A stretch of DNA of 63,997 bases, the filler included, from Diploschistes diacapsis (lineage: Eukaryota): assembly GCA_023645945.1 (NCBI GenBank). It is 7 parts of 7 records of this genome, joined end to end, with 100 filler letters (N's around TTAATTAATTAA, not from the genome) between each part and the next. Parts side by side here need not be neighbours in the genome. Positions count along the whole stretch, not along the records: positions 27,559 to 36,633 come from JALAIB010001075.1; 6 more parts are not named here. One strand, written 5' to 3'. The position numbers and the translations under genes were made by a program. Below are positions 9,108 to 55,067 of this stretch, one piece after another. Positions within the stretch are counted from its first letter, which is position 1. Each line of letters begins with the position of its first letter. The notes under the pieces were generated by a model. It was not told the DNA's origin. It did not search any database and saw nothing but the letters and a program-made list of their open reading frames with translations.

Positions 9108-9207
9108 NNNNNNNNNNNNNNNNNNNNNNNNNNNNNNNNNNNNNNNNNNNNTTAATTAATTAANNNNNNNNNNNNNNNNNNNNNNNNNNNNNNNNNNNNN
9201 NNNNNNN
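9108..9207. other. Artificial contig spacer (44 N + TTAATTAATTAA + 44 N)
   Basis: Palindromic stop-in-all-frames linker, identical at all six gaps. Confidence 0.98.
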
Positions 9208-18283: not shown

Positions 18284-18383
18284 NNNNNNNNNNNNNNNNN
18301 NNNNNNNNNNNNNNNNNNNNNNNNNNNTTAATTAATTAANNNNNNNNNNNNNNNNNNNNNNNNNNNNNNNNNNNNNNNNNNNN
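18284..18383. other. Artificial contig spacer
   Basis: 44 N + TTAATTAATTAA + 44 N. Confidence 0.98.
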
Positions 18384-24001: not shown

Positions 24002-26551
24002 ATGGACTACGTTAATGGTCTGAGCCGCGACGCACGGTATCATTCAATCCCGGGGTCTCAGGGCAGCGAATTCGAGTTGCACAATACCGAGTACGCATCG
24101 CCCCAGCCAATATACAGCACGCCGGAGACTGCCTATGGTTTCCGAGATCTTCGCGACGATGAGCCTTTGCGAGGGCGTCCGGAGAGGCAGCATTCGGAAA
24201 GACAATACTCAGATACAAGCACGTCCACGGCTCAGGGAGGTTTGCTCCGGACAATGAGGTCGCGGCTCTCGTCTCTGAGAGATCCCGATTTCATCGCTGA
24301 AAGGTTTGGAAAATCAAAAGGAAAACCGCAAGAATTCAAACAATGGTTCTTCTTCTGGACAGGTATATTGGTCTGTGTGGCATGGTGTGTTCCTGCCATC
24401 GTTCTGCTGGTGCTTAATTTTGAGAGTTATATTGTGGGTGCTTCGGCATGGTGTCCGGAGAGATATTGTCCGGGGATAGCCGTGGGAATAAACACGTCGT
24501 TATCGTCGCTGCTGGCAAAGGCCGATCATGATACGCACAACTTTGTTGGCACACTGCAGTTCGTGGCCAAGGCCCTCGAGGTGTGGTTCGGCTACATAGC
24601 TGTCACTCTTGTCTACGCAATCACCAGCTTGCTGGCACGGAACGAACATGGCCTGCCGATTGGATGCAAGTATTCGTACTTGACACCATGCACGGACATG
24701 AGCTGACTTTCGGAGTTAGACCTACTCACTTATGTCGAGTTCACCGATATCTTGTCTATATTCAAGCCAGCGCATTGGACATCGGCGCACCTCGTGGACA
24801 ACAAAGATCCTTACAAAGAAAGTCGTCGAGTCAGGAAATTCTACCTCTTTGCTTTCGGAGTGGCATTTCTGTGCATTCTTGCCAACCTCATTGGGCCTGG
24901 TATAGCCGTTCTTCTTATCCCAACGGTCCAGATAATTTACACGGATCCAACCTATCCTCAACGGTTCACTACTCTCTCTTCGGCAAGCGCTCCGCAAGGT
25001 CCGAACGCTATTCCATGGTGTACTGCGGAGCAACTCGCAGCAAACGGTTATACCTGTACGGAATCCACGTACGACACAAACCTGGACAGCATGGTCAATT
25101 ACATTTATTCCCAGCTGCAGCAGGATTTCCTAGCGCATGGAAAGGTTTGGAATGGTGTTGCTCCTCCAACTCAAGAGGAGGCCCTTGTCTTCCAATTCAA
25201 CGTCACGGCGCTGAACCCTCATAATGCCAGCGTTTACACCGCCTGGGCGCCCAGCCGCCAGACTGTACGAGATCTCTCCCGAGATCAAGAGTGGTACTTC
25301 GATAACGGGACCAATGCAGACTCGGAGTATGCGGGCTTGAGTAACTCCATGACCCTCAATTTGCAAAGGGAAGGTCCCATCGTTAGCGTTACCCAGACGC
25401 TGTGGGGGGGCAACTTGACTGTCACGCAAGTCGATGACCAGAGAGCGATTCACTGCTACCACAAATGGTGGTGGATCGCTGAGACGGACCAATATTACGC
25501 GAAATGCTTTCGTGCTGGCTCAGGCTGGAATAGCACTGGCGGGATAGCTGAGTTTCAGGTCGGCACTGTGAACTCTGGGTGGTTACTGGACTGGGGCCCA
25601 CCCAGGCCGGCACAGGCCAGATCCTTCTTTGCTGACAACGCAACTTATATCCTCGACGACTGGAGCACTGGGAATCTTAAGTCTCAACCTTGTTTTCCAA
25701 ACGGAACTCTACCCAGCGATGCTGGCTGCGACTACGATAGCATCTTTAAAGCGCCACTGCCCTCCCTCCTGCCTCAAAACCTTACATCTTGGACCAGTAA
25801 CGCCTTTATCATCGAGAACGTTCTAATGAACGATACCTCGCTCGCATTCGTCGCGGAGTCATATCTGACCTTGGGTTTCACCACATACGGAGTCGAGGTA
25901 ACCAATGCCACGTACTCATCAGAATTCGGCGTCGTGCAGATCAGTGACTTGCCGGACATGACCCAGACTTCGCCGATTGCCTTGAATGCTAGCTGGTACC
26001 TTGGGGTCTGGTCTTGCAATAATACGAACGACGTGTCTATGTTTAGATACTCCGCGTGGGCATTGCAGACCTCGATAGCGGACCTTTATGACCAGGTGAA
26101 TACTAACGGCTCAATAGACTGGTCCGGGATCGATTTCTCGAACTGGTCACAGCTGAGCCTGTACACGGTTCTCCAGGCTGCATCGCTCATCCCATACAAC
26201 GTGACCGATCCAGCGACGGATGGCATCAACCTGTCTCCGGACGATATGTATCACCCGTCCCTGGCCAAGAACGCAATGCGGCAGGTGTATGCGTACGGCA
26301 TCGACTCGAGAACCTCGATCCTCGGCGTCGTAACCACCATCATGGGTATTATCGTGGCTCTTGGACGGGCGGGGCTCTCATTTGTCACGCGCGTCAGGCA
26401 CCGCGAGCCACTCGAGCTACTGGTTGCGGCCATGAAGCATCCACATATGTCAGAATTCGAGGGCTGCGGCGAAAGCGAGAGGAAGATGGCCAAGGTGCGA
26501 TTCAGAATCGATGATAGTAGGGAGGACAAGATCATTTTCTCGAAGAAGTGA
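24002..26551 (+). CDS. Multi-pass membrane glycoprotein of unknown function (fungal-specific)
   Basis: Two long ORFs in the same frame joined by a 54-nt intron (24666-24719). TM segments WTGILVCVAWCVPAIVLLVLNF, GTLQFVAKALEVWF, LANLIGPGIAVLLIPT and a C-terminal YAYGIDSRTSILGVVTTIMG; many N-x-S/T sites. Confidence 0.85.
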
Positions 26552-27458: not shown

Positions 27459-27558
27459 NNNNNNNNNNNNNNNNNNNNNNNNNNNNNNNNNNNNNNNNNN
27501 NNTTAATTAATTAANNNNNNNNNNNNNNNNNNNNNNNNNNNNNNNNNNNNNNNNNNNN
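27459..27558. other. Artificial contig spacer
   Basis: 44 N + TTAATTAATTAA + 44 N. Confidence 0.98.
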
Positions 27559-27892
27559 AGCTAACCCTGTTATAATACAGCAGAATAACGTGCTTTATTG
27601 ATATCATGATTAACCTAAAAATCGCTTAAACGGATATAGATTTAGATTCAAATTCTTATACCAAATTTATTAATAATTATAAAAACGTATAATAAAATAT
27701 TTTATAGAAAGAGGCTCATTTAGTTTAAATAGGTCCTCCGCATCGCATCCGACTGTTAACTTTCCTCCTTCTAAAAAGCTATTCTTGAACCCTTGCGCCA
27801 GACATTTCTTCGCATATCATCGTTTCTTGCCATCGGCCTCGATCATCCGAAAGAAGATTTCGATTATTTAGCTTTCGTCCTCATCTTCCAGC

Positions 27893-28672
27893 TTACCGAG
27901 GAGCTGCATAAACCAAGCCTGGATCCACACGATACAAATGCTCCTGCTTCTCGAGACCTTTCAGGTTAAGCGTGCCTACGTACTCGAACCTAGGTTCTCC
28001 TGTAGTAAAAATACTCGACCTATCTGGGCTTCGTTTTTTGTTATATTCCGCTAACTTCTTTTTATATGTGGTAGAATCCGGACGATTAGCTCGTGTTTCG
28101 GCGTTAAAAGAACGTTATACTTCGGAAAGAAAAACTTCGGATACAAGTATTTCGCTATCGTTAGCGAGCGAAGTTATCCGCGAAACACGGTTAATCATAT
28201 CTTTAAGATAATCCATACGTTTGGTAATATGATTCAATTGATACAGCGGAATATCTCAATACGCGCTAATACGGATCGAAAGTTTTCTACGAACAACCTT
28301 ACCATTGTTTTTAAAGAACTTTTGGCCATCGGCGTTATCTAATATCTCAACTGGCTAAGAAGCAGCTAGCAGAAGAAATTGAATAAAAAGATTCCACAAC
28401 AAAACCGCAGTAGGTGCTTAAAACGAAACCATAAATCCGTCGTTTATTGTTTTAATCTTATAACCACCGAATAACTTTAATTCGTTCCGAAAAACCTCGT
28501 CGTGAATTTTTATAATAAAACTCATGACTTCGGGGCTTAATTCCTATAAAACGCATGAATTCTTGATGTCGGTAAAAACGATAACTAAACGTCCAAATAG
28601 CGTTGGAACTTTTCTTACAGATTTCGAGAATAGCAAGCCAGGCGTTAACGGGTGGCTGGATGATCGTAACAT
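27893..28672 (-). pseudogene. RIP-inactivated stand-alone class III adenylyl cyclase catalytic domain (Cyr1-like), 260 codons
   Basis: One frame without frameshift: MLRSSS...GRLVIVFTDIKNSCVL*ELSPEVMSFIIKIHDEVFRNELKLFGGYKIKTINDGFMVSF*APTAVLLW...AS*PVEIL...RKLSIRISAY*DIP...TKRMDYLKDMINRVSRITSLANDSEILVSEVF...FEYVGTLNLKGLEKQEHLY. Colinear with the fungal AC consensus VFTDIKNST.LWE..P.AMR.AIK.HN..MRRQL...GGYEVKTEGDAFMV.F...GLSVRMGIHWG.P...TRRMDYFGPMVNRASRI...ADGGQI...LKGLE.PE. Confidence 0.9.
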
Positions 28673-29585
28673 TTATCTATTTAATTACTTTTTCTAGAAA
28701 ATAAGAATGCTTACAAGAACTTTTTTAATCGAAATTATTACGAGAATTTCTTCTATAGGTCAATCGGTTGATAATTATACCCGTAAACTTGCAATCCGGC
28801 CACGGTACACGATAATAAAAGATTCGAAAAACCACGGCTCTAGAAAAGTAATATAGACACTTCTTATTATATGAAATATCAGGATGAAGCATAAGATTTC
28901 TTTTTTATCGGCCGGTATCAGTAAGACCGGAAACGTTCTATAAGAAAAAATCGTCCAGGTTTCCTATTATACTCCGCTATTTCCGGTCTATTACTTTTTC
29001 CTACCTTTGTTCCCTTTCTACCATCTTCGGTTCCGTTGCTGAGACGATCTACTAAAATATTACAACATTAGGAAAGCCCTCTTGCTTCAAATATGAAGAA
29101 ATAAAGGTCGGATCAACTTGAGAAAGCGAACCTTGTAAGAACGTTATACATCTTATCAACGATAACGTTAGTTGCTAATATAGTGAGTCAAACTTGAAAA
29201 AAAGGACTTCTTAAGTTATAACGGGCAGCTCGCAAATCTAACATAAAATAAAACTCTTGCATGCGGTATGGCTTACACTTTACGAGGAAAGTGGCAATGT
29301 CCGCTTAAAAAAACATTTTGCGATTCCCATATAGTATGTTTACAACATACAACAGGAAGATTATAGCAGCGTAACTGGCTTTATGTCGAACGGGAACTAA
29401 AGTTCTCCTAATACGACGTACTATTAATGATACGGAAGTAATTTAATAACATCACTCATTCCTTACGAGTCCATTTAAGCGATTGGCCAGAAACGCAATA
29501 TCTAAAAAAAAAGATTATTTAATAAATCTTAACCGAAGCGCGGTATAAACGTAAAACGTTTCGAGAAGAAATAAAGATTTCGACG

Positions 29586-29990
29586 ATGGAAATGATCGAA
29601 AAGCAATACTTAAAGCCGTCACAAGAATAATACGAGTATGTCAGAAATCTTATGAAAGGCCGTAAAAAACATTTAACTATATATCGACGTATTTCAGGTA
29701 AATTAGTTATATATTGAATTTAAAACAACAAAGGAACCTAAAAGCATCATACGGCGGAAGCTTCTTCTACCGAACTTATTACTTATCAAAAAATAATTCT
29801 ACACAAACGCATTATTAAATTCATCAACGCAAGAAAAACTTTACAATACTGATTCAAGAACAGAATTACATATCGATTGATGCTAGAATACTACAACGGC
29901 AGCGACCCGGATCATCTTTTAAAATACGGAAGATTACGTATATATTTCTTTCCCGAAAGGTTCGTCCGGCACGTATTAAAAACAAACGTT
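29586..29990 (+). pseudogene. RIP-mutated protein kinase N-lobe/hinge fragment
   Basis: From ATG 29586: YEYVRNLMKG...YRRISGKLVIY*...TELITYQKIILHKRIIKF...RLMLEYYNGSDPDHLL, then after a frameshift PERFVRHVL. Matches H.RIVKF / LEYCDGGDL / PE.F.WHV of fungal kinases; no catalytic loop or DFG seen downstream. Confidence 0.6.
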
Positions 29991-30503
29991 GAAAACGTTG
30001 ACATAGATAGCGCTACAGCGGATCGAGAATCTGCATATGTACCTTAACAATTTTTCCTTTATTTCGATAAGTACCTAGAGCGGGCAGTATTCCGAAGTTA
30101 TATTAGAAACTTTTGACATTTCTAGATCTTTAATTGAAATAGAACCGAATCCGTCGTATAATAAAACGATTAAAGAATTTATTTATTTTTTACTCGACAA
30201 CATTACGTAGCCGGTTAGCAAGTACGTAAGACCTATTAATACTCCCTAGTATTCGCAGAGCATTAAATACTGGCTTAAAACGATCGGTAAAGGGCAAGTG
30301 AGGAATACCTTCTAGCTACTTATGCAGAGTTTGTATCCTCTAATTTCAAAATTTCATCGAGATAACCTCTTCTAGACAATTTCCAGATTAGATAGTTCAG
30401 CGTTTTCAGTATCTATAAAACAAAGAACAAAACAAAAAACATTAAACAGAAACGGATATTCTGTTTTATGAAACTTGTCTAAACCGTTCTTATATTTTCG
30501 AAT

Positions 30504-31390
30504 ATGGCCAGCTTCGGTACAGGTTCAGATTTAGTTTCGGGATGCGGTCTTATACTTTAAAACTATCTTTTTTACTACGGATAAGCTTAAAAGGTTGTCC
30601 GATAATACGCAGAACCTTTTAAGGTATCGCTAGGTTAATCTATCCCATGTTAATAGATTTAGAAGAGGTTAAAAGGCGTAAAAAAAATAGTAAAAGCGCG
30701 GCATTACGTTAACGACTCATGACCTAAGATAACAAAATGAATAAATAACATAATATCGGAATATACAATAACTTATAAAATTCTTAACAGTCTTTAAAAA
30801 CGTTATTCTCTAAATCCGAAAAGTACCTTAGAACGTAATCATTAAATACTAATAACTTTAGGTATTAGAATCTATAAAAAGTATAATAAGTACATTCTTT
30901 TTTCGATAGCTTCGTTGACCGCTTTATTCTCAAGCCTACATGCTAACGGACTGGGCTCTCGAGCCAATGAATCACCAGACCATTATCCCTAAGTTTCTCT
31001 CTCCATATTAAGACATTAAGCTCGCCGTTTAAACGCAAGCTAAAAAAAGCGCAGAATATAGAATACATAAACAATAAAAATACTTCTTTTACAACCTAAG
31101 CCACCATCACGGCGCTACTACCGATGATGCCGGTGGGAGAAAAGACGATAACGAACTTACTATCTTTTACCCGCAACGAGAATTACGGTCACCTACATAA
31201 AAAGCTCCGTCACACCTTAAAGAAACCGAAAGACGCAAAGGGAATTATTCAGAAAGTTAGAAGAAAGAAATAAAACGCTTTAAATTACCTAAACCAAACC
31301 CTTAAACATATATACAAAGACGAAAGAAACAAAAAGATAAAAAGAAACACGAGTAATAAAGAACTCGTTTTCGTTACAACGGGCTAAAAT
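30504..31390 (+). pseudogene. RIP-mutated ORF with helical N-terminus reminiscent of fungal SesA/HeLo-like STAND N-terminal domains
   Basis: MASFGTGSDLVSGCGLIL*NYLFYYG*A*KVVR*YAEPFK... followed by helical-looking segments with many TAA (likely CAA). Similarity limited to the MSFG..GD start pattern. Confidence 0.3.
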
Positions 31391-31543
31391 GTTCCTATAT
31401 TTCTATTATGTACAGACTAACGGCAGTTAGGGGACATAATCATACAATACAGTTTATTATTAAAGATCAAATGATAAATTAAACATACTCGAGTCCGCAA
31501 TAATCTATTATAATCTCTATATGCTTGCGTTCTCTAATATATT

Positions 31544-33212
31544 TTACGATATTACGTGATCTTCGCCAACCACCTGTTCTTCTAAAGTGCGCCTTAGCTC
31601 CGCGATAACGTTAATAGCCTTTCTGATGCTGGATTCTAGTTTTCGCTCTCGCTCGGATTTTTCTCTCTTCCAGCGCTCTGCCCATTTCTTCTCCCGGCGC
31701 CGCATGGTATTAAGCAGTCCATTTGATGCTACAAGTTTGATTACTTAATATTTTCATCCGTATAATTAACGAAATCTAAGGTTTTGTAATTGTCGTTATT
31801 GATTCCGCTGACGTGGGTCCGTTGATCTTTACGCGGCTTCGAAGGCATACGCCTATATTTTAAAGATAAAGAAGAAGTTCTTGCGATATGCAGGTATACG
31901 TTCTTTATAGACGTTATAACTAGGTAAGAACCGTTTTATGTTTCTGTCGTAGAAGAAGAAGTATCCGCGTCTACTATTAATATAGTAAAGTCGCCATCGT
32001 TTTAGAACTGGACATTAAGAAAGCTTATTAGTTCCTTAATATCAATAATTTTGTCGAAAGCGTTATCTAAATATTAATATTCGCTAATCGGGTTTATTAG
32101 GGTAAGATTTGAAAACACGAAGGCGCCGGACCCGCCGAATATAAGGTCAAAGATTCCTGCGAAAAAATCATTAAAGAAGCCTTATAATTCCGTAAGAAAT
32201 GCTTTATGGAAGAAATCGCGTTCTTATAACAAAAAGATGAATGTAAGTATATAAGATTCGATAGTAAAAGGACCGTTTAATCACTCGTTCCTAATTATTA
32301 TAAACTTATGATTATTAAAGTTACTTTTTACTTACGAGTTTTAAGATGTTATAAATTAATTCACTTATTCTATTCGTTAATAAACTGTATTTCGTAGAAA
32401 AAATGATTGATTAATAGATTTATAGGTTCAAAAAGGCCGAGTATAGTAGGCATCGGGTGTATATTATATCAAAATCCGAGAACATACGTTACAAATGATA
32501 AGCAAGATGTTCACGAAGAAATCGAAGCGAGGAATAATAACATTTAAGTCGAGTAAGGAAACTCGTCTTTAATTTTAAGTAAATTAAATATATCTTGCTT
32601 TAAAGTGATGCGATAATTTAGTAAAGATATTTAGTTCAAAAACTCTAGTCAATTAATTTTAATATATATTAATTATTTATTGCGCCGATTTCTTTTTTTA
32701 ACTATTACGTCAAATCCGGTGCCGGTTTCGATAAACCTTGAACAAAAGATAGCATTGTTAATAACTATAGACGACATGTTAGAGATCCTTAATCTATTAA
32801 TTTTAATCCTTTCGGCCAAGACATTTTTAGCTTTGTTATTATTGCAGAACTTCCAGAAATAGGTACTATAAGGCCGAATTTCTTATCTAACCGTTTCCAG
32901 GTTTTTAATAAAAGGGCGACTGATTCCGTTCGTTAGTTAGTCTATACGTAATACTTTTGCATTTCATTTTTCCATTATTTCTTTATTCACGCTTCATTCG
33001 ATATAAACAAAGGTACTAACTTAATTGACTATTTTATTAATTATCAGTAACGTTTTATCGATCTTAATCCTTTTATTGCACTTCAATTCCTTATTTAGAG
33101 ATATCTTCTTAATGTATGCGTCCGGCATCCATTCCAGCTTTTTTGATAATAATACGTTGTTCGAATGTTTCAGATTATATAAAACTAGCTATTTTTCGTT
33201 GCGGTGAACCAT
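31544..33212 (-). pseudogene. RIP-mutated intron-containing ORF of unknown function with a C-terminal charged coiled coil
   Basis: ATG 33212 (MVHRNEK*LVLYNLK...KLEWMPDAYI), GTTAGT donor and CTAAC..CAG acceptor, long frames broken by TAA/TAG, ending RRREKKWAERWKREKSERERKLESSIRKAINVIAELRRTLEE. Confidence 0.4.
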
Positions 33213-34046
33213 AATTTAAAGATCATCTTTTTGGAACTGAAGGTAGGTAAAGAATTTGTAAGTATTCTATATATCAGTCTACTTCCGAGCATCTTTTTAG
33301 TCAAATTATACCTATACTTTCGCGTTAGGCAGGCCTTATATACCCTGATTGACCTAGATGTGTATTGTAAATAAAGGATTATAAATGGCAAGCCTGTCCG
33401 TCTTTATAAAACGTGTTAAATAGTTAATATAGGGATTCACTCAATAAACTATACTTACCCTTGCTGTAAATAATAACGTTATGATTGGCAGAGACGTTCT
33501 TAGGACGAACAATAAATCAGTTTATAAATTATTTCTTATTTTTATTTTATGTTTCGTATTCGCGCTAGCGCAGGGCTTCCGAAGCATTTGCGCGGCACTG
33601 TTCTGAAGAATACTTAAATCGACGTAAAAATATTCAATAATAAATAGATCGCACAATCATATAAAATCGAATATTCTTATTCGCGCTTCGAGTATAAAGA
33701 AATATATATATTCCATACGTGACGATCGAGATCCGCGTAAACGCCATTATATACGTTTTGATAAAGCAAAACTGGCCGGATGTTCCTAATCTTTAAATAT
33801 CTGGATGAAAGAAAAGACAATGTTTATCGTTGGGCCAATTGGATCACTAACAGAATACATACAGAAAACTAAAAGATTAGAAGAAACCTTATATTATAAT
33901 ACAAATCGAGGAGCATTAAAAGCCTGCATACCGCATGCGTTATGACATATCCTTATTATTAGACATCAATTCGAGGCGCACGCCTGAAAGCTTGGTGATT
34001 TTGATTACAGAAACGAAAGTAATCCCAAAGCTTTACACGAGTTACC

Positions 34047-35443
34047 TACACACGCTTCCTTCTTTCGTCTATCGTCCTTTAAGCGCCGCATACATAACTT
34101 CACTAAGAATCATATTTGTACTATCAGTCCTTCGAAACAGCCTGATGTTATACATTTTATTAAACAACGTAAACTTTCTATAGCCCGTTTCATTGTATTC
34201 TTTTAACGCTAGAATTTGAATGCGTTCTAAAAGGCTGTATAAAAGCCTAAACCGGCGTTGATTTCGATCAGCCTAGCCTCGGATATAGCTTTTCATATCT
34301 AGAAGTTCGATATCTTCGGGCTTGAATTGCCCCTTCGAGTGGCGACCGAGCAATATTCGATTAGTGCCCGAAAAGTAAAGCTACGCCACGATATCGTTTA
34401 TAGGGAATTTACGCACGATCGTTTAGGATTTAATCTCGACCAGATTTTCGGTATTTATAGTTTTATTAATTTCGTACATCAGCAAACGTGGATAACTAAC
34501 AGCAAAAGACTTTTCCGAAACCTTAAACGACTCGAATCAGATATTTTTTTTTTTTATACATGCATCATTCTCGAATTAAACGATAAGATTTATACCTCCA
34601 AATTAATAATTTAAAATACGGTGGTAAGTGGCCAGCTTGATCTACTTACATTTTGGCTTGACGGTGTAATGGTTCTCGAATCCTAGATTGTATTTTCGAG
34701 AATGGTCTTTGGACGTAAGATTGGTGCTTTGGATCCATCGATTAAAAAACATCGTGTTTCTTACGACTTCGATATCGATCCGTATGTTAGATTCGATGAA
34801 GCTTATATTCCCGTTGTATAGATGGTATAATTCACGGAGATTTTTGAATCCCGTTATAATATTAATATCCTTAAATCGGAAATTCGGTTCTTATACTTTG
34901 ATTACCCTGAACAGCGGTTTGAAACAAGGTGCGTAAAGATTCGGGTTTCTTTTCTTTTAATAGTTCATGTTTGTTTTATTTAGGTCGAGATTTAAGAGCT
35001 CGTTTCGTATATTTAATCGTAAAGCAAATCTTATTTAGTTAGCGACGAATTGTAAGAAAGAAATTATACTAATCCGGTACTAATATTATTAATTTAAAGT
35101 TTAATGTCTAATTATAACTTGTAATGATTCGTTATCGTCGAATTTCGATACTATCCTTCATCGGTTTTATTAAGTTGACTTTTAATACGTGAACTTTTGT
35201 TTCTGAGTTTTCGGAGGCCGGAACAGTTTGCGATCGATTGTGATAAAAAATATAAACTCTTTTAAACCTATAGTGTTCAGTCGTTTCCTATTTTATGTAG
35301 GATTCCTTTCTTTTCGGGATCCTTGTTATCATATTATGCGAGTAAAGATAACGATTTGAAGAATAGCCGCCATTAAAGAAGAATATATACGGTCGTTTTG
35401 ACCTCGGACGGTTAAAAGGGTGCGGAACTTTCTTTAAAAGCAT
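34047..35443 (-). pseudogene. RIP-inactivated gene: two CCCH zinc fingers + DXO/Rai1-like (PD-(D/E)xK) domain
   Basis: ATG 35443. Y-x7-Y-x4-Y-x3-H and Y-x8-Y-x5-Y-x3-H, where each Tyr codon is TAT/TAC (one G>A from Cys). Then ITSYN*...IILVPG, PCFKPLFRVI..PNFRFKDINIITGFKNLRELY, IRIDIEVVRNTMFFNRW, LGFENHYT, YHRILNY*FGGINLIV*FENDAC, LVEIKS, VA*LYFSGTNRILLGRHSKGQF, *ADRNQRRFRLLYSLLERI. Confidence 0.8.
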
Positions 35444-36633
35444 TACGAAGGTTTTAGATGTTGTTAACCAGGCTGTGATCTCTTAATAAGATAGATAAGA
35501 TCTTATAAAGAACTAAAAAGCTTAGAACCTCTATCAGAATCTTAGAATTTTGGCCGAAAGACCATATTTCAGATAAATGCCGATCGATAATATAAAAGAA
35601 ACAAAATAGAGTTTCGTATTCGGATTTCTTTTTAAAAGTTTGGTCAATATTAATCGTTTATTATCTATCCGTTACGTATTCTGTATATACTGCCTAATTG
35701 CGTACTATTCGGTTGCGGGTTTTATTCTAGTTTTCGTATAATCGATGCTCGTTCGCTGCTATTAGTTAGTAATGGCGTTCTATCGTCGAAAAGTCGAAGG
35801 AGTTTATACTTCTTTAAAAAGTTTAGAGTACGTACGAAACCTATTTTAATCTTATATAACTAATAGGTATATCGGACGGATAAGATGGTTTATCAGTTAT
35901 TATTTCTTTAACGATCGCGAAAGTAAGAGATATTACGGCGATTATTTTAATCTTAGCCTGGATTCCAGCCTATATTTTTCATTTATTTGCCGTGTATCTG
36001 AGCTCAGTATGTTTAATTGGGGCAATTTTTTTAGCGAAATGGGTGACCCGAAGACATTATTTATAAATTATGATAACTAGGCTTGCGGAATCGATAACTC
36101 TTTCTGTCTAGGACTCGGAGGCAGTAATAATAATATTAGTTTTATCGATAAAAAGAGCGCTCGAAATCTTTTTTTTATTAATAATAAAGCTTTTATATAC
36201 CGAACATACACATTCCGGATCGTAAAAATAGTTGAATTTAATGTTATTTAGAACAACTTACTTTCAGCTACGATAAGAAGTTGGACGATATAAACTTAAA
36301 ATGTTGGCGGCATTATCTAAACGATCTATAATAAAACGAAAGCTGATAAATAAAAATAAAAACTAACGAAAAAAACGAATTAATAAATAAAAAAGAAAGC
36401 CTGGGCTCCTCGAACTAAAGGAAGACGTTAACTTTATAAACATTACGTTCCTCTCGACTTCAATGCTCGGAAAGCTCTAAAAACCCGGATTAAATAATTA
36501 AGAAAAAAAAGACCTCGAATTTCGAAACAAACAGACACGGGATTCTATTGCAGGCGTTTGATCGTAGCAAAGAATTTATAGGATATATAAATAAAATTAA
36601 TCGAAGATTAAATTAACTTAAACTACGTCGATT

Positions 36634-36733
36634 NNNNNNNNNNNNNNNNNNNNNNNNNNNNNNNNNNNNNNNNNNNNTTAATTAATTAANNNNNNNNNNN
36701 NNNNNNNNNNNNNNNNNNNNNNNNNNNNNNNNN
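36634..36733. other. Artificial contig spacer
   Basis: 44 N + TTAATTAATTAA + 44 N. Confidence 0.98.
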
Positions 36734-45808: not shown

Positions 45809-45908
45809 NNNNNNNNNNNNNNNNNNNNNNNNNNNNNNNNNNNNNNNNNNNNTTAATTAATTAANNNNNNNNNNNNNNNNNNNNNNNNNNNNNNNNNNNN
45901 NNNNNNNN
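45809..45908. other. Artificial contig spacer
   Basis: 44 N + TTAATTAATTAA + 44 N. Confidence 0.98.
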
Positions 45909-46400
45909 AACATGCTAGAAGCTTAGTAAGCAATCTGACTAACCTATTTAGGTTAGTATTCTGACATTCCGTTATTACGTACGAAATTAATATATTTATA
46001 GGGCAATAATGTCTTGGGTTCCCCCAGGCGGCGGCGGCGGTGTATTAAAAAAAATGAGGAAAAAGGGTCCGTACGACTGGCTCGTCGTCGGAAAAATAAT
46101 AGTTAACGGGCTTCGTTCATAACGTGACGTAACGTGCGGTTCTTGTTCTACCCGATGTATTTATATTTTTTAAATTATAAAGTATATAATGCGAAAGCGA
46201 TTCGGCCTTCTTGAATATTTATAATAAGAAAATGTTATCGTACGAAAGATAAAAATGTTAAGAAATATATTTTACGAAAGTGCAGGGATTGTGTTCCGTT
46301 TGGTATTTGTGTTCCGTTGCGTGATGAAACATGTTAGAATACCTATAAAATTAGTAAGTATCCGCATTAGTAATCTGCCAAGGGAAATCGATCAATCAAA
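45909..46400. repeat. Short AT-rich, RIP-like relic at contig start
   Basis: TpA-rich, CpG-retaining composition like 27559-36633; no identifiable domain. Confidence 0.4.
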
Positions 46401-47047
46401 GTATTTGAATTTGGCCCTCATATCCCCATATCCACAAAGCAAGTGAACTCAACCCATTAGATATTAGATACACGTGCTACCTACGAGAGCTATATAAGAG
46501 CAGTTTGACCCAGGTGGGCATATCAGTAGCAGCTTCAAGCACCCTGTACTGGTTTCAATATCCCGTATACTATTCCGCTTTTGCGCAAGCAAGAATGGGG
46601 AAGCTACTAGTAGTAGTATCCTTGGTCGAGCAGGCTTAGAAGTTTAGATAGAACACGGCTGGAGGTAGTTAAGCTTTGCAAGCAAGCAATTAATAATTAA
46701 TCTTGAAAGTCTAATCGAGATTGTGTGACTGTGTGATGTGTGATGGGGAACAAGCCTAGGGGTGATAATAGTCCTAGTCCCACAAGAGGAGAAGCGCTGA
46801 GGAGGCTAGTAATTCAATTCCCAAACAGAGCCTCTCGACTTTCTCAAACAAGTCTCGGAATTAGAATTATCTAGCAATCTATCTCTCAAGCCAAAGTTTG
46901 ATCAGATCATCTTTTTCTTCCGAAATCAAGCCCAAGGTCCAAAAGGAACACAAGATGGGTTGCAGTGACATGAACCACCACACTTCCCCGCCAAGGATCT
47001 TCCCGGTCAGCGATTGATTGATAAATCCCCTTGCTTTTTCTGCGCCC

Positions 47048-54967: not shown

Positions 54968-55067
54968 NNNNNNNNNNNNNNNNNNNNNNNNNNNNNNNNN
55001 NNNNNNNNNNNTTAATTAATTAANNNNNNNNNNNNNNNNNNNNNNNNNNNNNNNNNNNNNNNNNNNN
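54968..55067. other. Artificial contig spacer
   Basis: 44 N + TTAATTAATTAA + 44 N. Confidence 0.98.

What the first reader, a model, noticed from the sequence alone, without database searches (positions are those of the whole stretch)
27559..36633. Cryptic RIP-killed gene island: cyclase + kinase + helical effector-like ORF + CCCH-DXO nuclease, no transposase
Seen: a 9-kb AT-rich contig, nearly empty in the ORF track, holds five decayed host-type genes (AC domain -, kinase +, helical ORF +, unknown -, CCCH/DXO-like -), and I could not find RT, integrase or DDE motifs. Established: RIP acts on duplicated DNA or leaks from adjacent repeats, and giant fungal mobile elements such as Starships carry gene cargo that becomes RIPped. 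Inference: this is the remnant of a multicopy or mobile accessory module combining nucleotide second-messenger synthesis, phosphorylation and RNA decay. Conceptually it resembles cyclic-nucleotide immune systems and may be an undescribed fungal defence/signalling cassette. The functional linkage is speculative.
Basis: partly seen in the sequence, partly recalled or inferred. Interest (0 to 1): 0.85.

Follow-up and report, generated by a model that had tools for sequence, protein, structure and literature searches.

The report
RIP-mutated gene relics in lichen fungus
This 9-kb AT-rich contig from a lichen metagenome is fungal DNA scrambled by the genome-defence process RIP, and it holds two clearly dead genes (a small cyclase and a protein of unknown function), not a demonstrable defence cassette.

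Summary
The piece 27559-36633 is a separate 9075-bp contig. Its GC is 34%, against 48-55% in the other six pieces, and it has RIP-type dinucleotide bias.

Two of the five claimed genes are real relics.
- **Cyclase relic (27893-28672, minus).** It is a class III cyclase catalytic domain (Pfam E 2.4e-7; fungal adenylate cyclases E 8e-40). It is not a copy of the CYR1 gene: no LRR or PP2C is present. It groups with two divergent short cyclase ORFs.
- **326-aa family relic (34066-35045, minus).** It matches a hypothetical protein of the lichen fungus Thelotrema lepadinum (E 5.6e-92).

Both relics are collinear with their homologues and have no frameshifts. Against P0075, all 9 stops of the second relic lie opposite Q or W, and 92 of 159 mismatches are C>T/G>A-explainable (controls 22 and 11).

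Not confirmed: kinase, CCCH finger, DXO membership, helical ORF. No transposase, RT or captain was found. The Logan contig carrying the cyclase relic has about 3x the depth of the rest.

Verdict: a RIP-affected region made of gene relics. The cyclic-nucleotide defence reading is unsupported, and co-location in intact genomes could not be tested.

The parts
27559..36633 (.). Whole 9075-bp contig: AT-rich (GC 0.34) with RIP-type dinucleotide bias, no long ORF, no repeats, no tRNA or Rfam match
   Evidence: All 17 one-kb windows pass the classic RIP index thresholds (thresholds recalled). 3 of 17 pass the stringent RIPper thresholds.
27893..28672 (-). Relic of a small class III cyclase gene. Homology-supported core is 27920-28640. 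Possible original ATG at 28672-28670 and stop at 27895-27893 (inferred). There are 5 in-frame stops within the aligned core, 3 of them at conserved Trp positions.
   Evidence: Pfam PF00211, E 2.4e-7. 73 hits, best E 8e-40. Family HMM 179.8 bits, catalytic domain only. Collinear, single frame. RIP-explainable mismatches 33-41 of 131-147, against controls of 9-19. Closest after RIP correction to P0147 and P0091.
27699..29571 (.). Segment covered by one Logan contig with mean word depth 83, against 12-27 for the five other tiling contigs: possibly a near-identical repeat of about 3 copies carrying the cyclase relic
   Evidence: table 8. There is a 30-nt overlap with the next contig at 29542-29571. 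The tool warns that this depth is not a copy number.
34066..35045 (-). Full-length, intron-free relic of a 326-aa conserved hypothetical protein family (P0075 Thelotrema lepadinum, P0076, P0077), with 9-10 in-frame stops and no frameshift
   Evidence: E 5.6e-92, 48% identity, 97% coverage. Alignment A1. tblastn 35028-34078 for P0075 and 35016-34066 for P0076. 92 of 159 mismatches are RIP-explainable, against controls of 22 and 11. 9 of 9 stops lie opposite Q or W of P0075.
31609..32350 (.). Hint of a further coding relic from purine/pyrimidine three-base periodicity (score up to 0.20). The minus frame has fewer stops. No homologue found.
   Evidence: Pfam none. The search for homologous proteins none, limited to proteins of 165-525 aa.
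32509..33100 (.). Hint of a further coding relic (periodicity 0.22). The minus frame has fewer stops. No homologue found.
35659..36550 (.). Strongest periodicity in the contig (0.28, above the maximum of 0.233 over 20 shuffles). Plus frame 3 has 1 stop in 133 codons at 35850-36251. No homologue found.

Best explanation

SHOWN. It holds at least two small intron-free genes that died by C>T/G>A transitions alone. One is a roughly 260-aa stand-alone class III cyclase of a divergent clade related to the Cyr1 catalytic domain. The other is a member of an uncharacterised 326-aa ascomycete family.

INFERRED. A gene-bearing, non-transposon segment became duplicated, either by segmental duplication or as the load of a larger mobile unit. 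It was recognised by the RIP machinery in one or a few sexual cycles. Both strands were deaminated, mainly at CpA and CpT, giving nonsense and missense changes but no indels. GC fell from about 50% to 34%. The intermediate GC fits few RIP rounds. The region is now non-functional AT-rich DNA. A 1.9-kb part with the cyclase relic seems to have been copied again afterwards, or is shared by about three loci. There is no evidence that the genes formed a functional unit.
For: Composition and RIP indices differ sharply from the six other pieces. 17 of 17 windows pass the classic thresholds.

The 326-aa relic aligns end to end with intact homologues in one frame. 92 of 159 mismatches to P0075 can be reached by C>T/G>A alone, against 22 for the reverse transitions and 11 for a transversion control. 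9 of 9 stops lie opposite Gln (7) or Trp (2). Identity rises from 49% to at most 79% after correction.

The cyclase relic is collinear over about 230 codons. 33-41 of 131-147 mismatches are RIP-type, against controls of 9-19.

Of the inferred transitions in the 326-aa relic, 82 of 102 sit in CpA or CpT context and only 8 in CpG.

The best homologue comes from a lichen fungus, and the only run holding the contig is labelled lichen metagenome.

Lichen-fungus genomes are known to be compartmentalised into genic DNA and RIP-affected low-GC DNA, with intermediate GC read as fewer RIP cycles (PMC12542154, section 6 read; bioRxiv 10.1101/2025.11.25.690456, passages read).

No TE protein domain was found.
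Against: Only 3 of 17 windows pass the stringent RIPper thresholds, and the whole-contig TpA/ApT of 1.07 is below 1.15 (thresholds from PMC7882544, passages read). By index alone this would not be called a large RIP-affected region.

No second copy was seen. The other six pieces hold no paralogue. Most of the contig has uniform word depth of 12-27. The duplication that RIP needs is therefore inferred, not shown.

In Cladonia rangiformis genes are reported as practically unaffected by RIP, and RIP regions as TE-derived (PMC12542154, section 6). A gene-derived RIP block is therefore not the usual case.

About 7 kb of the contig has no identified origin and could be degraded TE sequence beyond recognition.

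After RIP correction the cyclase relic is still only about 68% identical to its nearest relatives, so further divergence is unexplained.
Confidence: 0.6

Rival explanations
1. RIP leakage. The genes were single-copy and were mutated because RIP spread from large repeated elements lying just outside the contig. The contig ends are where the short-read assembly broke.
For: No repeat lies inside the contig. Five of the six tiling Logan contigs have similar low depth. Assemblies of lichen fungi break at RIP regions (PMC12542154, background passage). The RIP level is moderate (GC 0.34).
Against: The bias is spread over all 9 kb rather than declining from one end: 17 of 17 windows pass the classic thresholds, and the strongest are in the middle at 30059-32058. 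From memory, leakage is described over a few kb at most. [quoted passage not shown]
Confidence: 0.2
2. Cargo of a giant mobile element (Starship-like) or of another gene-capturing transposon such as a Helitron. The genes travelled as load, the element became multicopy, and it was mutated by RIP.
For: Several non-TE gene relics lie together without a classical transposase. There is about 3x depth and a graph branch at the cyclase-bearing 1.9 kb. Starships with RIP-affected repeats exist in lichen-forming fungi (bioRxiv 10.1101/2025.11.25.690456, abstract and passages). Helitrons are reported as enriched in lichenised fungi (PMC13535494, search listing and abstract start only).
Against: No DUF3435/tyrosine-recombinase, Rep/helicase or any other TE domain was found in six frames. 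There are no terminal repeats. Nothing recognisable lies at the borders of the high-depth piece. The contig is far shorter than a Starship, so absence of a captain says little either way. Only one run holds the sequence.
Confidence: 0.13
3. One reading: the remnant of a functional cyclic-nucleotide signalling or defence cassette (cyclase + kinase + effector + RNA-decay nuclease).
For: A stand-alone cyclase relic lies 5.4 kb from, and on the same strand as, a relic of a family with invariant G-L-G-F-E, E-S-D and E-I-K/E motifs. These resemble Rai1/DXO motifs II-IV (PMC4513879, introduction). The nearest annotated clusters in the ESM Atlas are RAI1 (score 0.90; 19 of 30 hits). This is a lead only.
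Against: No kinase and no CCCH finger. No PADLOC match for either protein. No Pfam or PDB sequence match to RAI1/DXO, even with a profile. Motifs V and VI were not found by eye in A1. All genes are dead. Adjacency in intact genomes is untested.
Confidence: 0.05
4. Not RIP at all: DNA of an AT-rich organism that reads stop codons as residues, or ordinary neutral decay of pseudogenes.
For: In-frame TAA, TAG and TGA are frequent. GC is 34%.
Against: TAG stands at conserved Trp as well as Gln positions, which no single reassignment explains. Mismatches are strongly directional. There are no frameshifts in 230 + 317 aligned codons, which is unlike neutral decay. Few changes are at CpG. The best homologue is from a lichen fungus.
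Confidence: 0.02

Closest known systems
RIP-affected low-GC regions (LRARs, 'RIP islands') of lichen-forming fungi such as Cladonia rangiformis and Xanthoria (PMC12542154; bioRxiv 10.1101/2025.11.25.690456; definitions in PMC7882544)
   Same: Low GC next to genic DNA of about 50% GC, a RIP-type dinucleotide shift, C>T/G>A directionality, fragmentation of short-read assemblies, and intermediate GC as expected after few RIP rounds.
   Different: Those regions are described as TE-derived, with genes practically unaffected. Here the only recognisable content is two non-TE genes and no TE domain. GC of 34% is higher than the 10-20% typical there. Only 3 of 17 windows meet the stringent index thresholds.
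Fungal adenylate cyclase Cyr1/CYR1 (RA-LRR-PP2C-cyclase)
   Same: The catalytic domain is the closest annotated relative: E 8e-40, with 179.8 bits to a profile of 49 full-length enzymes.
   Different: There is no LRR, PP2C or C-terminal part. The relic ends about 8 codons after the domain. It shares derived residues with two short divergent ORFs, P0091 and P0147, which are only 44-46% identical to canonical enzymes. Canonical enzymes are 50-88% identical to each other, and 55% or more among the fungal ones.
Rai1/DXO decapping exonucleases (PF08652)
   Same: Invariant GLGFE, ExD and ExK-like motifs occur in the same order as Rai1 motifs II, III and IV (PMC4513879). The nearest annotated ESM Atlas clusters are RAI1.
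   Different: No Pfam, PDB-sequence or profile match. Motif spacing differs: 35 and 45 residues here, against 49 and 21 in C. albicans Rai1 by the residue numbers in PMC4513879. Motifs V and VI were not found. The fold could not be modelled (pLDDT 42 and 35).
RIP-inactivated gene duplicates in Neurospora crassa and RIP-mutated genes in AT-isochores of Leptosphaeria maculans (recalled, not read here)
   Same: Genes are inactivated by transitions only, with stops created from Gln and Trp codons.
   Different: Here the partner copy and the genomic setting are unknown.

Membership tests
RIP-affected region (RIPper / LRAR criteria, PMC7882544) | Product index TpA/ApT > 1.15 | tested here: not met
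   Whole contig 1.07. 3 of 17 one-kb windows exceed 1.15.
RIP-affected region (RIPper / LRAR criteria, PMC7882544) | [quoted passage not shown] | tested here: met
   Whole contig 0.73, composite 0.34. The composite is above 0 in 16 of 17 windows.
RIP-affected region (RIPper / LRAR criteria, PMC7882544) | At least 4 kb of consecutive windows passing all stringent thresholds | tested here: not met
   Only three adjacent windows (30059-32058) pass.
RIP (alignment-based definition) | Excess of C>T/G>A changes relative to an unmutated homologue, on both strands, with a CpA preference | tested here: met
   92 of 159 mismatches are RIP-explainable, against controls of 22 and 11. 9 of 9 stops lie at Q or W. 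82 of 102 inferred changes are in CpA/CpT context. The comparison is at protein level only; DNA of an intact paralogue was not available.
Class III adenylate/guanylate cyclase domain (PF00211) | Profile match above Pfam's gathering score | tested here: met
   31 bits against a cut-off of 21.9, E 2.4e-7. PDB cyclase domains E 8.7e-7.
Fungal Cyr1-type adenylate cyclase gene | LRR region and PP2C domain upstream of the cyclase domain | tested here: not met
   tblastn with 7 full-length enzymes and an HMM of 49 of them match only the catalytic domain.
Rai1/DXO (PF08652) | Sequence or profile similarity to the family | tested here: not met
   No Pfam hit for the relic or for P0075-P0077 at E<=10. 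No PDB hit by phmmer or by profile.
Rai1/DXO (PF08652) | Six motifs: R, G-Phi-X-Phi-E, EhD, EhK, KX4-Phi-hQ, GhR (PMC4513879) | tested here: inconclusive
   GLGFE, ESD and EIK (E in P0077) are conserved in A1 in the right order. Motifs V and VI were not found by eye. Motif I cannot be assigned.
Rai1/DXO (PF08652) | Rai1/DXO fold | tested here: inconclusive
   Two AlphaFold2 runs on alignments of 3-4 sequences gave pLDDT 41.6 and 34.5. No fold search was made on such models.
Protein kinase | Pkinase profile match or catalytic-loop motif | tested here: not met
   No Pfam hit in six frames at E<=1. Only PEAK1, E 0.88, in PDB. No RIP-tolerant HRDxKxxN-like motif.
CCCH zinc finger | C-x7-8-C-x4-5-C-x3-H | tested here: not met
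   0 strict matches. 1 RIP-tolerant match against a shuffle mean of 1.4.
Starship | DUF3435 tyrosine-recombinase captain at one end | tested here: not met
   None in the 9 kb. The flanks are not available, so the element as a whole is not testable.
Bacterial-type cyclic-nucleotide defence (CBASS, Pycsar and the like) | Match to a defence-system cyclase or effector model | tested here: not met
   PADLOC gave 0 families for the cyclase relic, P0075 and P0076 at E<=1.

The most novel reading that the evidence does not exclude
The contig is the RIP-silenced copy of an accessory gene cluster of lichen-forming fungi. In it a stand-alone, Cyr1-derived cyclase (the clade of P0091 and P0147) works with a divergent Rai1/DXO-like nuclease (the P0075 family). 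This would be a eukaryotic counterpart of cyclase-plus-nuclease defence or signalling modules. It would be carried on a mobile or duplicated unit, and intact copies would survive in genera such as Thelotrema.
Probability: 0.05. Interest if true: 0.75.

Novelty: new member of a known kind. Interest (0 to 1): 0.3.

Why it matters
RIP-affected AT-rich DNA is ordinary in lichen-forming fungi, so the main result is that the proposed defence cassette has no support.

Two smaller points are worth keeping.
- This block is made of non-transposon genes. That is not the usual content of RIP regions in these fungi. It shows RIP removing gene duplicates or accessory genes in a lichen mycobiont.
- The relics point to two poorly known protein groups. 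One is a divergent, apparently stand-alone cyclase clade related to the Cyr1 catalytic domain. The other is a 326-aa ascomycete family without a Pfam domain, whose invariant acidic/lysine motifs suggest a metal-dependent nuclease.

Both groups have intact members that can be expressed and assayed.

Tried and rejected
- **Windowed Pfam scan.** The scan of 90 translated windows failed because of output size. I replaced it with 8 targeted frames (only a noise hit, Oxidored_q5_N, E 0.48) and with whole-frame searches against PDB sequences (cyclases only, plus noise such as XkdQ E 0.098, PEAK1 E 0.88 and a phosphoribosyltransferase E 0.89).
- **Stop density.** It does not separate relics from background: the shuffle mean minimum is 2.2 stops per 150 codons.
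- **Region 31534-32433, minus frame 1.** 365 candidates, none at E<=0.1, and only proteins of 165-525 aa were searched.
- **JGI metagenome scans.** No relative of the 326-aa family. For the cyclase clade there were only distant class III cyclases, 33-44% identical, of no use for context.
- **Structure.** Two models were too poor, so no fold search was run.
- **Unavailable resources.** No genome is held.
- **Earlier findings.** Nothing found.
- **Sequencing runs.** No RNA holder is listed. Runs X2 and X3 hold next to none of the words.
- **RNA genes.** No tRNA or Rfam family, which also argues against a mitochondrial origin.
- **Full-length CYR1 pseudogene.** I considered this and rejected it.
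- **Borders of the high-depth piece.** They show no recognisable element ends.

Full report
**What the piece is**

The window is not continuous DNA. It is seven pieces of 8930-9107 bp joined by spacers of 44 N, TTAATTAATTAA and 44 N. The finding covers one whole piece, 27559-36633 (9075 bp).

- GC is 0.34. The other six pieces have 0.48-0.55.
- TpA/ApT is 1.07 (others 0.74-0.87).
- (CpA+TpG)/(ApC+GpT) is 0.73 (others 1.18-1.36).
- In 1-kb windows, 17 of 17 pass the classic RIP thresholds (above 0.89 and below 1.03; these thresholds are recalled).
- Only 3 of 17 pass the stringent RIPper thresholds (above 1.15, at most 0.75, composite above 0) that PMC7882544 uses.
- The piece has no tRNA, no Rfam match, no tandem, direct or inverted repeat of note, and no similarity to the other six pieces.
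- The only public run that holds it is labelled lichen metagenome and may be its source.

**The cyclase relic**

Six whole-frame translations with stops read as X gave one Pfam family at E<=1: PF00211 on the minus strand at about 28121-28591 (31 bits, cut-off 21.9).

A 253-residue reading of 27901-28660 found 73 proteins among 2109 candidates. The best rows are fungal adenylate cyclases of the LRR-PP2C-cyclase type (E 8e-40, 38% identity). The last four rows are bacterial-type ATPase-cyclases at E 1e-5 to 4e-4.

Seven full-length fungal enzymes align only with their catalytic domain, at 27920-28639. The alignment is in one frame with no frameshift. All their other segments have E of 0.86 or more.

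A profile of 49 full-length enzymes gives 179.8 bits for profile positions 1390-1615 and nothing for the LRR or PP2C parts. This is therefore not a dead copy of the CYR1 gene.

- Three of the five stops inside the aligned domain stand at conserved Trp positions.
- C>T/G>A changes can explain 33-41 of 131-147 mismatches. The reverse transitions explain 9-18 and a transversion control 16-19.
- Canonical catalytic domains are 67-88% identical within Pezizomycotina, 55-66% between fungal subphyla and phyla, and 50-57% to the Capsaspora outgroup.
- The relic reaches at most 55-58% to them, even after a generous RIP correction.

A full HMMER scan of 1.84 billion representatives gave 2458 hits. No parent closer than 43-45% identity appeared, and for 147 of the 150 listed hits the best stretch lies within query residues 84-386, around the domain.

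After RIP correction the nearest are two short ORFs, P0147 (0.69) and P0091 (0.68).
- These two are 53% identical to each other.
- They are only 44-46% identical to canonical enzymes.
- They share derived residues with the relic: RNEL, GDG[FI]M, SFQ, GDM[IV]N.

The relic has a possible ATG at 28672 and a stop at 27895. That would make a roughly 260-aa protein consisting of the cyclase domain alone. This reading is inferred.

**The second relic**

I noticed that 34084-35073 in minus frame 1 carries GFE, END and EIK in the order of the Rai1/DXO active-site motifs. Pfam and PDB sequence searches gave nothing.

The large protein search, however, found three intact proteins:

| Protein | Source | Length | E-value | Identity / coverage |
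|---|---|---|---|---|
| P0075 | hypothetical protein MMC10_009834 of Thelotrema lepadinum | 326 aa | 5.6e-92 | 48% identity, 97% coverage |
| P0076 | not named | 326 aa | 1.6e-73 | |
| P0077 | not named | 244 aa | 4e-56 | |

The relic aligns end to end in one frame. Against P0075:
- 155 of 314 positions are identical.
- 92 of the 159 mismatches are reachable by C>T/G>A alone (controls 22 and 11).
- All 9 stops stand opposite Gln (7) or Trp (2).
- Identity rises to at most 79%.

Of 102 inferred single changes, 42 are in CpA context, 40 in CpT, 12 in CpC and 8 in CpG. This is direct evidence of RIP, and of a gene killed by it. It also places the contig in a relative of lichen-forming Lecanoromycetes.

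**Is that family DXO-like?**

The intact proteins have no Pfam domain. They have no PDB match by phmmer or by profile, and no PADLOC match.

The ESM Atlas puts them next to ascomycete clusters without a Pfam family (score 0.96; two of these carry the automatic name 'geranylgeranyl pyrophosphate synthetase'). Then come clusters in which 49% of members carry RAI1 (score 0.90; 19 of 30 hits). That is a lead, not a test.

Of the six Rai1 motifs listed in PMC4513879 (introduction read):
- II, III and IV have counterparts that are invariant or nearly so in alignment A1.
- V and VI were not found.
- The spacing differs.

Two structure predictions were too poor to use (pLDDT 41.6 and 34.5). Membership stays open. 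I put it at roughly even odds that the fold is of the Rai1 or a related PD-(D/E)XK-like nuclease kind.

**What was not found**

- No kinase: Pfam, PDB sequences and a RIP-tolerant motif search.
- No CCCH finger.
- No RT, integrase, DDE transposase or DUF3435.

Three further stretches show purine/pyrimidine three-base periodicity, which RIP preserves: 31609-32350, 32509-33100 and 35659-36550. Their scores are as strong as, or stronger than, those of the two proven relics: 0.20-0.28 against 0.16. The 99th percentile of shuffles is 0.154 and their maximum is 0.233. None of the three has a homologue in the searches I could make.

**Copy number**

Logan's contigs of run X1 tile the piece.

| Logan contig | Mean word depth |
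|---|---|
| 27699-29571 (holds the cyclase relic) | 83 |
| five other tiling contigs | 27.5, 18.5, 12.1, 22.4, 24.5 |

The high-depth contig overlaps its neighbour by 30 nt, as at a graph branch. No variant contigs of at least 80% likeness lie on the flanks.

This fits about three near-identical copies of a 1.9-kb segment in unrelated flanks. Such copies would have been made after the mutations. The tool warns that such depths are not copy numbers. The rest of the contig looks single-copy relative to itself.

**Reading**

The best explanation is a gene-bearing segment that was duplicated, recognised by RIP and mutated for a few rounds. It leaves a 34%-GC block of dead genes.

Lichen-fungus genomes are known to be split into genic and RIP-affected compartments, with intermediate GC read as few RIP cycles (PMC12542154, section 6; the Tangerine preprint, passages). 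In Cladonia rangiformis genes are reported as practically unaffected, so a gene-derived RIP block is the less common case.

Leakage from neighbouring repeats and cargo of a larger mobile element remain open, because the flanks are unknown.

**Verdict**

I file this as a new member of a known kind, with low to moderate interest. The two protein groups it points to are the most useful by-product.

Noticed in passing
window 9108-9207, 18284-18383, 27459-27558, 36634-36733, 45809-45908, 54968-55067: The window is a chain of seven separate contigs of about 9.1 kb, joined by N44-TTAATTAATTAA-N44 spacers. Neighbourhood across these points has no biological meaning. Frames that run through them (for example the 'X...LIN' ends) are artefacts.
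   Followed up: yes
P0075, P0076, P0077 (homologues of window 34066-35045): An uncharacterised ascomycete protein family of about 326 aa without a Pfam domain. It has invariant GLGFE, TYHRILNY, ESDA, EI(K/E)S and LLGRH motifs. ESM Atlas neighbours are partly auto-named 'geranylgeranyl pyrophosphate synthetase' without carrying a synthase domain, which looks like a propagated misannotation.
   Followed up: partly
P0078-P0090: The top-scoring representatives for the cyclase relic are proteins of 1000-2250 aa with 3-6 separate cyclase-domain matches each (24-31% identity). Their origin and architecture were not examined.
   Followed up: no
window 27569, 27641, 32291 (table 7): Logan contigs of the source-like run end in Nextera adapter sequence at these places. 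The first 140 bases or so of the contig (27559-27699) are covered only by a 110-nt contig flanked by adapters, so that end of the assembled contig is weakly supported.
   Followed up: no
window 45909-47000: The start of the sixth piece has lowered GC (0.40) with TpA/ApT 1.02 and substrate index 1.03. This is a mild RIP-like shift at a contig end, as expected if the short-read assembly breaks at AT-rich regions.
   Followed up: partly
window 24707-26551 (+), third piece: An intact 614-codon open frame rich in N-x-S/T sites lies in the neighbouring piece at normal GC. It was used only as a control for the periodicity measure.
   Followed up: no
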